Below are positions 22,501 to 22,911 of a DNA stretch of 64,000 nt, piece by piece. The notes beneath the pieces are model-generated. The model saw nothing but the letters and a program-made list of their open reading frames with translations. It did not search any database and was not told where the DNA came from. The stretch lies in the sequence record OQ718158.1. One strand, 5' to 3'. Every line of letters starts with the position of its first letter. Positions within the stretch are counted from its first letter, which is position 1. Origin of the DNA: Escherichia phage vB_Ec-M-J. A program made the position numbers and the translations under genes.

Positions 22501-22911
22501 ATGATTGAAATGGAAGGAACTCTGGTGTATGATCCAGATCGTGGCACTATGAAAAAGAAGAAGGACTTCTGGTTAGTACTGCAACTTCCATTACAGTTGG
22601 TTCGATACTACCAGTACTTCATCAGAACTGACTTACATATTGATATTAAAGACCCACAATGGGGAGCACATGTCAGTATCGTTCGTGGTGAAGTGCCACC
22701 AAATCCAGAGTACTGGAAAAAGTACGATGGTATGAAAGTTAAGATTAAGTTCGAACCTTTCATCGAAGAAGTAAAAGACAATAAGAAACCTGGGTCATTC
22801 TTTATCATAGAGTTTGAAGATGATTTCATTGCACAAATTCGTGATGAACTTGGTTTAGCATCTAAATATTTCAAATATCACATCACCATTGGTAGAACAT
22901 ACTACGATTAA
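22501..22911 (+). CDS. 2H phosphoesterase superfamily protein (LigT/CPDase/Acb1-like)
   Basis: 136 aa; two H-x-[ST]-x motifs (AHVSIV and YHITIG) about 70 residues apart. Confidence 0.6.
   Translation: MIEMEGTLVYDPDRGTMKKKKDFWLVLQLPLQLVRYYQYFIRTDLHIDIKDPQWGAHVSIVRGEVPPNPEYWKKYDGMKVKIKFEPFIEEVKDNKKPGSFFIIEFEDDFIAQIRDELGLASKYFKYHITIGRTYYD

What the first reader, a model, noticed from the sequence alone, without database searches (positions are those of the whole stretch)
22501..22911. 2H phosphoesterase: possible cyclic-nucleotide or RNA-end phosphodiesterase (Acb1-like or LigT-like)
Two H-x-[ST]-x motifs (AHVSIV, YHITIG) about 70 residues apart in a 136-aa protein are the signature of the 2H phosphoesterase fold. 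To my recollection this fold includes 2',5'-RNA ligase, CPDases and the phage anti-CBASS nuclease Acb1. It is a small stand-alone early-region gene, consistent with degrading immune cyclic-oligonucleotide signals or repairing 2',3'-cyclic phosphate RNA ends.
Basis: partly seen in the sequence, partly recalled or inferred. Interest (0 to 1): 0.55.

Follow-up and report, generated by a model that had tools for sequence, protein, structure and literature searches.

The report
Jumbo-phage 2H phosphoesterase, probably RNA-end repair
This small jumbo-phage gene really does encode a 2H-fold phosphodiesterase, but it belongs to the already catalogued "Swiss Army Knife" 2H family, and its gene neighbours suggest it repairs cut tRNA/RNA ends rather than destroying bacterial immune signals as Acb1 does.

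Summary

The window comes from an Asteriusvirus-type E. coli jumbo phage (PBECO4/121Q group). The only family match is Pfam 2H-SAK (PF22547). There is no match to the Acb1 model (PF23474) or to the LigT models, and the protein has no room for the C-terminal lid of Acb1.

Sister jumbo phages share a conserved array: RNA ligase, Ro/TROVE, 2H, lysozyme, HPF, CCA-adding enzyme, Nudix, YqeY, Macro. Across 47 de-duplicated phage lineages, RNA-repair genes are enriched next to the 2H gene, while control genes are not.

The best reading (about 0.5) is an RNA 2',3'-cyclic-phosphate end-healing enzyme for tRNA repair. An Acb1-like signal nuclease (about 0.15) and a small-molecule cyclic phosphodiesterase (about 0.2) are not excluded. 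The family is uncharacterised biochemically but was predicted in the literature, so this is a new member of a known kind.

The parts
22501..22911 (+). Gene for a 136-aa 2H phosphoesterase of the 2H-SAK-like family (PHROG 12204). It is the ortholog of PBECO4 gp041 and GAP32_178.
22663..22692 (+). Catalytic motif 1, G-A-H57-V-S59-I-V-R62-G-E, at the start of strand E57-62.
   Evidence: H57 is invariant. S59 is 72%, R62 79% and G63 95% conserved in 112 sequences.
22876..22896 (+). Catalytic motif 2, Y-H127-I-T129-I-G-R132, in strand E126-132, only 9 residues from the C-terminus.
   Evidence: H127 is invariant. T129 is 97% and G131 87% conserved. The family-wide C-terminal tail has a median of 9 residues.
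22501..22569 (+). Family-specific N-terminal strand plus loop (residues 1-23, with conserved G6, Y10, D11, P12 and R14). Acb1 and ThpR have no counterpart. I infer that it replaces the strands which follow motif 2 in canonical 2H proteins.
   Evidence: Conservation. Strand E2-10 and the loop. Length comparison. The structural role is an inference and was not tested by superposition.
12211..13449 (+). RlaP, the RNA-ligase-associated Pol-beta nucleotidyltransferase of RNA repair pathways. It lies 9 kb upstream on the same strand and is context only.
   Evidence: Pfam PF10127 at 59.8 bits against a cut-off of 23. PHROG 388.
24021..24353 (+). HPF/RaiA ribosome hibernation factor homolog, part of the conserved array downstream of the 2H gene.
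   Evidence: Pfam PF02482 at E = 3.1e-10. Synteny.
25995..27110 (+). CCA-adding tRNA nucleotidyltransferase, part of the conserved array.
   Evidence: Pfam PF01743 and PF12627. It lies within 3 kb of the 2H gene in 7 of the 9 lineages that have it nearby.
27217..27630 (+). Nudix hydrolase, part of the conserved array.
   Evidence: Pfam PF00293 at E = 7.9e-12. PHROG 1185.
28450..28926 (+). Macro-domain protein (ADP-ribose-1''-phosphate phosphatase type), part of the conserved array.
   Evidence: Pfam Macro at 21.7 bits against a cut-off of 22. PHROG 335 'phosphatase' at 157 bits. RefSeq names the PBECO4 gp028 ortholog a macro domain-containing protein.

Best explanation
The gene encodes a catalytically competent, metal-independent 2H phosphodiesterase of the phage '2H-SAK-like' family. 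Most likely it is an RNA end-healing enzyme. When host anticodon nucleases or other metal-independent RNases cut tRNA or other RNA, they leave a 2',3'-cyclic phosphate. The two His-x-Ser/Thr motifs open that cyclic phosphate by general acid-base catalysis, giving a monoester (a 2'-phosphate in ThpR- and Trl1-type enzymes). A phosphatase then clears the monoester. In this lineage the candidate is the T4-type Pnkp, and elsewhere it may be a SAK-type HAD. The end can then be resealed by the phage RNA ligase, or extended by RlaP or the CCA-adding enzyme. The fold, the intact catalytic tetrad, family membership and the gene neighbourhoods are shown here. The substrate, the product regiochemistry and the pathway order are inferred.

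For: Family. Pfam 2H-SAK is the only hit, and all 21 orthologs match it, the best at E = 3.9e-10. UniProt names the Yersinia phage fHe-Yen9-04 ortholog 'Swiss Army Knife 2H phosphoesterase domain' protein.

Context. In 13 of 15 enterobacterial jumbo-phage loci the order is RNA ligase (-3.5 kb), TROVE/Ro (-1.8 kb), 2H, lysozyme, HPF, CCA-adding enzyme (+2.8 kb), Nudix, YqeY, Macro. In divergent lineages (23-43% identity) the neighbours include an RNA ligase immediately upstream (L017), TROVE plus RlaP plus CCA-adding enzyme just downstream (L020), RlaP two genes upstream (L007), RNA ligase plus NADAR (L014), HAD_SAK_2 and YqeY (L018), and TROVE 1.2 kb upstream in an Acinetobacter MAG contig (L107). 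One relative is a 2H-YqeY fusion, and YqeY is a tRNA-binding domain (P0041).

Statistics. In 47 de-duplicated lineages the density of repair genes falls from 7.7 per 100 kb within 2 kb of the 2H gene to 1.2-2.5 per 100 kb at 6-10 kb (p = 0.039). Control genes are flat (p = 0.68).

Lineage inventory. The window carries RlaP and a CCA-adding enzyme. PBECO4 also has a polynucleotide kinase (gp125) and an Rnl1-type RNA ligase (gp129).

Other. The family is basic (median pI 9.3) like ThpR (10.5) and unlike Acb1 (4.6-5.1). Iyer et al. 2021 (PMC7824862) already predicted that 2H enzymes of group 2.2 jumbo phages clear 2',3'-cyclic ends for ATP-grasp RNA ligases.
Against: There is no biochemistry for any family member. 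The linkage statistic is modest (p about 0.04), and the lineages share synteny by descent, so it is optimistic. In the window's own lineage the adjacent RNA ligase-TROVE block is missing, and the ligase and Pnkp lie about 50 kb away. From established knowledge of T4 Pnkp, that enzyme can heal 2',3'-cyclic ends by itself, so a separate cyclic phosphodiesterase may be redundant. The window protein is not basic (pI 6.3). The top structural neighbours include viral immune-signal nucleases (Acb1, MHV ns2, poxvirus cGAMP PDE). PBECO4 has no detectable Acb1 of its own, so that niche is open. Several contexts were uninformative (L009, L021, L108, L109).
Confidence: 0.5

Rival explanations
1. It is an Acb1-like anti-defence nuclease. 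On this reading the protein binds and linearises cyclic oligonucleotide immune signals (CBASS, type III CRISPR or related) through the same HxS/HxT chemistry, and it represents a second 2H family that evolved this role independently of Acb1.
Confidence: 0.15
2. It is a small-molecule cyclic phosphodiesterase of the NAD/ADP-ribose network. On this reading it opens ADP-ribose 1'',2''-cyclic phosphate (Appr>p, the by-product of removing an RNA 2'-phosphate with NAD) or free 2',3'-cyclic NMPs. The neighbouring Macro protein would then remove the 1''-phosphate and Nudix would split the ADP-ribose.
Against: ADP-ribose/NAD genes show no dependence on distance from the 2H gene (4/8/9/9/6 hits per 2-kb bin, p = 0.55), and only 4 of 47 lineages have one within 2 kb. 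The association is therefore regional rather than tight. No KptA/Tpt1 was seen in PBECO4's annotation, although this was not searched with a profile. The basic pI of the family fits RNA binding better.
Confidence: 0.2
3. It is an RNA-processing nuclease rather than a repair enzyme. On this reading it acts like Usb1 as a 3'-to-5' exoribonuclease, or like ns2 as a 2',5'-phosphodiesterase, trimming RNA 3' ends or 2'-5' linkages and leaving cyclic phosphate ends.
Against: No context points to snRNA-like or poly-U substrates. There is no sequence-level similarity to the Usb1 or ns2 families. The neighbours are ligase, TROVE, RlaP and CCA-adding enzyme, which rebuild RNA ends rather than trim them.
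Confidence: 0.08

Closest known systems
Pfam PF22547, 2H-SAK ('Swiss Army Knife' RNA-repair 2H phosphoesterase domain; Burroughs & Aravind 2016, cited from PMC5512222 and PMC7824862; the paper itself was not readable here)
   Same: It is the only curated model that matches. All 21 orthologs hit it, the best at E = 3.9e-10. The second H-x-T motif lies at the very end of the domain (profile positions 82-122 of 124). UniProt gives an ortholog this name.
   Different: The window protein itself scores 23.8 bits, below the 27-bit cut-off. This is a stand-alone phage protein rather than a domain of a multidomain SAK protein. PHROGs lists it as unknown function (phrog_12204).
E. coli ThpR/LigT and archaeal/bacterial 2'-5' RNA ligase-type RNA 2',3'-cyclic phosphodiesterases (PF02834, PF13563; PDB 1vgj, 4qak, 5h7f)
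   Different: There is no HMM hit, and hhalign gives 1.1%. It is 40 residues shorter. The tail after motif 2 is 9 residues against 51, and there is an extra N-terminal strand and loop.
Phage anti-CBASS nuclease Acb1 (PF23474; T4 gene 57B; PDB 7t27)
   Different: There is no PF23474 hit, and hhalign gives 1.7%. It has no C-terminal lid. Acb1 proteins are acidic while this family is basic. Both proteins occur together in phage fHe-Yen9-04. The genomic contexts differ: T4 57B sits beside 57A and dNMP kinase.
CPDase domain of fungal/plant tRNA ligase (Trl1/AtRNL) and the Appr>p cyclic phosphodiesterase (PDB 1fsi)
   Same: These are 2H enzymes that open 2',3'-cyclic phosphate RNA ends (or Appr>p) ahead of ligation, which is the same logic as a 2H gene placed next to an RNA ligase.

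Membership tests
2H phosphoesterase superfamily | Two H-x-[ST]-x motifs flanked by hydrophobic residues, one per lobe | tested here: met
   HVSI at residue 57 and HITI at residue 127. The histidines are invariant in 112 homologs. The pair is far beyond chance.
2H phosphoesterase superfamily | Two-lobed alpha+beta fold with the two motif strands facing a central cleft | tested here: met
2H phosphoesterase superfamily | Metal-independent phosphodiesterase or cyclic phosphodiesterase activity | not testable with these tools
   This needs purified protein.
Pfam 2H-SAK (PF22547) | Score at or above the curated gathering threshold (27 bits) | tested here: inconclusive
   The window protein scores 23.8 bits at E = 5.9e-5, and only its C-terminal third aligns. 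All 21 orthologs match at E <= 0.01, the best at 3.9e-10, and most carry a precomputed PF22547 hit.
Pfam 2H-SAK (PF22547) | Association with SAK-type RNA-repair components (HAD_SAK phosphatase, kinase, ligase) | tested here: inconclusive
   HAD_SAK_2 lies 1.5 kb away in L018 and within 6 kb in 2 of 47 lineages. An RNA ligase lies within 4.6 kb in 8 of 47 lineages. Neither is adjacent in the window.
Acb1 (PF23474) | Match to the curated Acb1 profile | tested here: not met
   No hit at E <= 10. The positive controls, T4 57B and the Vibrio phage D485 protein, score 202.7 and 152.3 bits. hhalign gives 1.7%.
Acb1 (PF23474) | C-terminal lid (residues 145-152 in the FBB1 enzyme) that closes over the cyclic nucleotide | tested here: not met
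   Only 9 residues follow H127, and the family median is also 9, against 37-39 residues in Acb1 proteins. The lid is described in PMC9117128.
Acb1 (PF23474) | Conserved base-stacking aromatics (Y12, W74, F107, W147) and the adenine-reading E141 | not tested
   This needs a residue-level structural superposition, which the tools do not return. The family has its own conserved aromatics, but equivalence is unknown.
Acb1 (PF23474) | Cleavage of 3'3'-cGAMP or cA3 and rescue from CBASS | not testable with these tools
   Experimental.
LigT/ThpR (PF02834, PF13563) | Match to the curated LigT or 2'-5' RNA ligase profiles | tested here: not met
   No hit at E <= 10 for the window protein, and none among the 21 orthologs at E <= 0.01. 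hhalign against E. coli ThpR gives 1.1%.
LigT/ThpR (PF02834, PF13563) | Hydrolysis of an RNA 2',3'-cyclic phosphate to a 2'-phosphomonoester | not testable with these tools
   Experimental. This is the function I infer from context.

The most novel reading that the evidence does not exclude
This family could be a second, independently evolved clade of phage 2H nucleases that destroy nucleotide immune signals (from CBASS, type III CRISPR or Thoeris-type systems). On this reading a conserved N-terminal strand and loop (G6, Y10, D11, P12, R14) would serve as the substrate lid in place of Acb1's C-terminal lid. It would be the only such enzyme in Asteriusvirus phages, which lack Acb1 and have lost the adjacent ligase-TROVE block.
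Probability: 0.15. Interest if true: 0.75.

Novelty: new member of a known kind. Interest (0 to 1): 0.3.

Why it matters
If the RNA-repair reading is right, this gene adds a dedicated cyclic-phosphate opener to the tRNA-repair kit that jumbo phages carry against host anticodon nucleases. That kit includes an RNA ligase, Ro/TROVE, RlaP, a CCA-adding enzyme and Pnkp. The family is large (about 900 clusters at 50% identity), almost entirely phage-borne, and has no characterised member, so a single biochemical study would annotate many genes now labelled 'hypothetical protein'. The result also warns against calling any small phage 2H protein 'Acb1-like' on the strength of fold similarity. The fold is roughly equidistant from every characterised 2H branch, and here it is context, not structure, that separates the possible functions.

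Tried and rejected
1. Sequence searches of the PDB with the single protein and with a profile gave only chance hits.
2. NCBIfam has no model for this protein or for T4 Acb1.
3. The afdb50 fold library was unavailable.
4. The Burroughs & Aravind 2016 paper that defines SAK could not be read. Text searches for 2H-SAK, PF22547 and HAD_SAK found nothing, and the supplements of the jumbo-phage paper are not held.
5. I looked for a separate Acb1 in the same lineage, which would argue against an Acb1 role. PBECO4 has none, so that argument holds only for the fHe-Yen9-04 clade, and there only through UniProt naming. I could not fetch that sequence to verify it.
6. The ADP-ribose/NAD linkage looked attractive from individual loci, but it shows no dependence on distance in the 47-lineage survey.
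7. The 'aminoacyl-tRNA hydrolase' label on window 29267-29644 in phage fEgEco12 is not supported. There is no Pfam hit, and the PHROG is of unknown function.
8. The cellular homologs (L108, L109) sit in uninformative housekeeping contexts.
9. The promoter and terminator scan and the Rfam and tRNA scans of the window gave nothing usable.
10. The search for related loci failed with the 112-sequence alignment because it is too divergent. A 26-sequence alignment worked.

Full report
OBSERVATION. The ORF at 22501-22911 (+) is real and starts with ATG. It encodes 136 aa and contains GAHVSIV (H57, S59) and YHITIG (H127, T129), with the two histidines 70 residues apart. A strict H-h-[ST]-h pair 50-100 residues apart occurs in only this one of the window's 76 ORFs of at least 100 aa. 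It occurs in 0.011% of shuffles of the protein.

SOURCE. The region is 98.8% identical to Escherichia phage BF17 and 89% identical to PBECO4, so the window comes from an Asteriusvirus-type jumbo phage of about 350-380 kb. tblastn finds the protein in 76 phage records. In every listed row that names one it is 'hypothetical', apart from a spurious 'viral L protein' label. All the listed records are large phages and nearly all exceed 300 kb. They include the RaK2, GAP32, CBB, BF, 7t3 and XbC2 groups, and more distantly Bacillus phage G, Agrobacterium phage Atu_ph07, Ralstonia phage RsoM2USA and a Vibrio phage.

FAMILY. PHROGs places the protein in phrog_12204, of unknown function (E = 2.3e-65). 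The only Pfam hit is PF22547, 2H-SAK ('Swiss Army Knife' 2H phosphoesterase domain). The window protein scores 23.8 bits, just under the 27-bit cut-off. All 21 aligned orthologs hit the same model, the best at E = 3.9e-10. Most homologs carry a precomputed PF22547 hit, and UniProt gives the Yersinia phage ortholog that name. An exhaustive profile search finds 901 cluster representatives at E <= 0.001, nearly all of them stand-alone proteins of 130-170 aa. In 112 diverse members (23-65% identity) H57 and H127 are invariant. G6, P12, G63, W72, R114, G118 and T129 are at least 90% conserved. A pattern scan of one genome from each of about 185,000 prokaryotic species found only three loci, all in MAGs. 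Two of these are genuinely cellular but uninformative. The family is therefore essentially phage-borne.

ARCHITECTURE. The family has 56-62 residues before motif 1 and a median of only 9 after motif 2. T4 Acb1 has 43 and 39, and E. coli ThpR has 42 and 51. Strand E24-28 plus helix H32-45 (FWLVLQLP followed by a helix) resembles the usual first strand and helix of 2H proteins. The additional strand E2-10 and its conserved loop (Y10, D11, P12, R14) are specific to this family. I infer that this N-terminal element takes the place of the strands that follow motif 2 in canonical 2H proteins. This was not tested by superposition.

Pfam has a dedicated Acb1 model, PF23474. T4 57B scores 202.7 bits and a vibriophage homolog scores 152.3 bits. 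The window protein gives no hit even at E <= 10, and hhalign of the family profile against T4 Acb1 gives 1.7% probability. Acb1's ligand-closing C-terminal lid (residues 145-152; Hobbs et al. 2022, PMC9117128) cannot exist in a protein that ends 9 residues after motif 2. The LigT models also give no hit, and hhalign against ThpR gives 1.1%. The protein is therefore a member of neither family. It belongs to the 2H-SAK-like family.

CONTEXT. In the window the gene closes a tight co-directional run of small ORFs downstream of thymidine kinase. It is followed by a LysM-lysozyme, HPF/RaiA, a CCA-adding tRNA nucleotidyltransferase, Nudix and a Macro-domain protein. RlaP, the RNA-ligase-associated Pol-beta nucleotidyltransferase, lies 9 kb upstream. 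In GAP32 the ortholog lies immediately downstream of an RNA ligase and a Ro/TROVE RNA-binding protein, and the same lysozyme, HPF, CCA-adding enzyme, Nudix and YqeY genes follow. Local annotation of 15 loci from this clade shows the array RNA ligase (-3.5 kb), TROVE (-1.8 kb), 2H, lysozyme, HPF, CCA-adding enzyme, Nudix, YqeY, Macro in 13 of them. Only 121Q (the window's lineage) and RaK2 lack the ligase-TROVE block. The lineage still has a ligase-based kit elsewhere in the genome, because PBECO4 encodes a polynucleotide kinase (gp125), an Rnl1-type RNA ligase (gp129) and a Sir2-Nudix pair.

Divergent members (23-43% identity) on metagenomic contigs repeat the theme. An RNA ligase lies directly upstream in L017. 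TROVE, RlaP and a CCA-adding enzyme lie just downstream in L020. RlaP lies two genes upstream in L007. NADAR and an RNA ligase are nearby in L014. HAD_SAK_2, YqeY, NAMPT and NADAR are nearby in L018. PARG and Nudix appear in L012, and SIR2 in L016. TROVE lies 1.2 kb upstream in an Acinetobacter MAG contig. One relative fuses the 2H domain to YqeY, a tRNA-binding module.

QUANTIFICATION. I retrieved 75 viral contigs and collapsed them to 47 lineages at 80% identity. I annotated them with iterated HMMs seeded from proteins already in hand. Hits for the repair/tRNA gene set (RNA ligase, RlaP, TROVE, Pnk, HAD_SAK2, CCA-adding enzyme, YqeY) fall with distance from the 2H gene. Counts are 14, 10, 8, 2 and 4 per 2-kb bin, or 7.7 down to 1.2-2.5 per 100 kb (chi-square p = 0.039). 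Twelve of 47 lineages have such a gene within 2 kb, and 18 of 47 within 5 kb. ADP-ribose/NAD genes (p = 0.55) and nine control gene families (p = 0.68) show no dependence on distance. The signal is real but modest, and shared ancestry among the lineages inflates it.

MECHANISM. The most likely role (about 0.5) is RNA end healing. The HxS/HxT tetrad would open the 2',3'-cyclic phosphate left by metal-independent host RNases on tRNA or other RNA. A phosphatase (Pnkp or a SAK-type HAD) and then a ligase, RlaP or the CCA-adding enzyme could complete the repair. This matches what Iyer et al. 2021 predicted in general terms for 2H enzymes of group 2.2 jumbo phages (PMC7824862). The family's basic pI (median 9.3, against ThpR at 10.5 and Acb1 at 4.6-5.1) fits RNA binding, although the window protein itself has a pI of 6.3.

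RIVALS. The first is an Acb1-like signal nuclease (about 0.15). It is kept alive by the structural neighbours, by the phage-restricted distribution and by the absence of any Acb1 in PBECO4. It is weakened by the failed membership tests, by the RNA-repair context and by the apparent co-residence of a named Acb1 with an ortholog of this protein in phage fHe-Yen9-04. The second is a small-molecule Appr>p or 2',3'-cNMP phosphodiesterase working with Macro and Nudix (about 0.2). This is plausible, but the linkage is only regional. The third is a Usb1- or ns2-like RNA-trimming nuclease (about 0.08).

NOVELTY AND VERDICT. The family is already in Pfam, and its presence in jumbo phages has been noted and interpreted in the literature, but no member has been characterised biochemically. 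This is a new member of a known kind and is of moderate-to-low interest (0.3). The main open question is experimental: whether the substrate is RNA ends or immune signals.

Noticed in passing
window 12211-13449 (+): This ORF is RlaP, the 'RNA repair pathway DNA polymerase beta family' nucleotidyltransferase (Pfam 59.8 bits). Related genomes annotate it only as 'nucleotidyltransferase' or 'hypothetical'.
   Followed up: partly
window 24021-24353 (+): The phage encodes an HPF/RaiA ribosome hibernation factor homolog. It is conserved 2 kb downstream of the 2H gene across the enterobacterial jumbo-phage clade.
   Followed up: partly
window 25037-25450 and 25437-25859 (+): Two adjacent, slightly overlapping ORFs both belong to PHROG 20693 (unknown function) and are apparently tandem paralogs.
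   Followed up: no
window 20089-20673 (+): Thymidine kinase is present here, in fEgEco12 and in GAP32. It is absent from the syntenic site of PBECO4, where the flanking genes gp047 and gp048 abut directly. This is an indel within the genus.
   Followed up: partly
window 20934-22493 compared with GAP32 (L002 2796-5744): GAP32-type phages carry an RNA ligase plus a Ro/TROVE gene just upstream of the 2H gene. This lineage (and RaK2) has only small ORFs of unknown function there. The window's 2H protein is also unusually non-basic for its family (pI 6.3 against a median of 9.3).
   Followed up: partly
PBECO4 gp264 (L025 44709-45032, minus strand): This small ORF (107 aa) also carries a strict HVSV...HCTV motif pair 59 residues apart. 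It gives no hit with the family HMM and may be chance or a degenerate 2H relative.
   Followed up: no
PBECO4 gp095/gp094 (L024 15840-17140), outside the window: An adjacent Sir2-Nudix gene pair, together with Pnkp (gp125) and an Rnl1-type RNA ligase (gp129) elsewhere, shows that the lineage has an NAD-linked RNA-repair repertoire.
   Followed up: partly
L001 (phage fEgEco12 annotation of the same region): Several product names look spurious. The 2H gene is labelled 'viral L protein', window 21787-22143 'SAM hydrolase', a 43-aa ORF 'nucleocapsid protein', and window 29267-29644 'aminoacyl-tRNA hydrolase'. None of those that were re-scanned is supported by Pfam or PHROGs.
   Followed up: partly
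P0041 (335 aa, metagenomic): This is a single fusion of the 2H domain with a YqeY/GatB-type tRNA-binding domain. YqeY genes also lie within 2 kb of the 2H gene in 4 of 47 lineages.
   Followed up: partly
window 28450-28926 (+): The Macro-domain protein scores just below Pfam's cut-off (21.7 against 22 bits) but matches PHROG 335 'phosphatase' strongly (157 bits). RefSeq names its ortholog a macro domain-containing protein.
   Followed up: yes
window 22935-22962 (+): The 140-nt gap between the 2H gene and the lysozyme gene holds a promoter-like site (TTGATA, 16 nt, TATACT, with an upstream TG). This suggests the 2H gene ends a transcription unit, but the scan as a whole is no better than shuffled sequence.
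   Followed up: no
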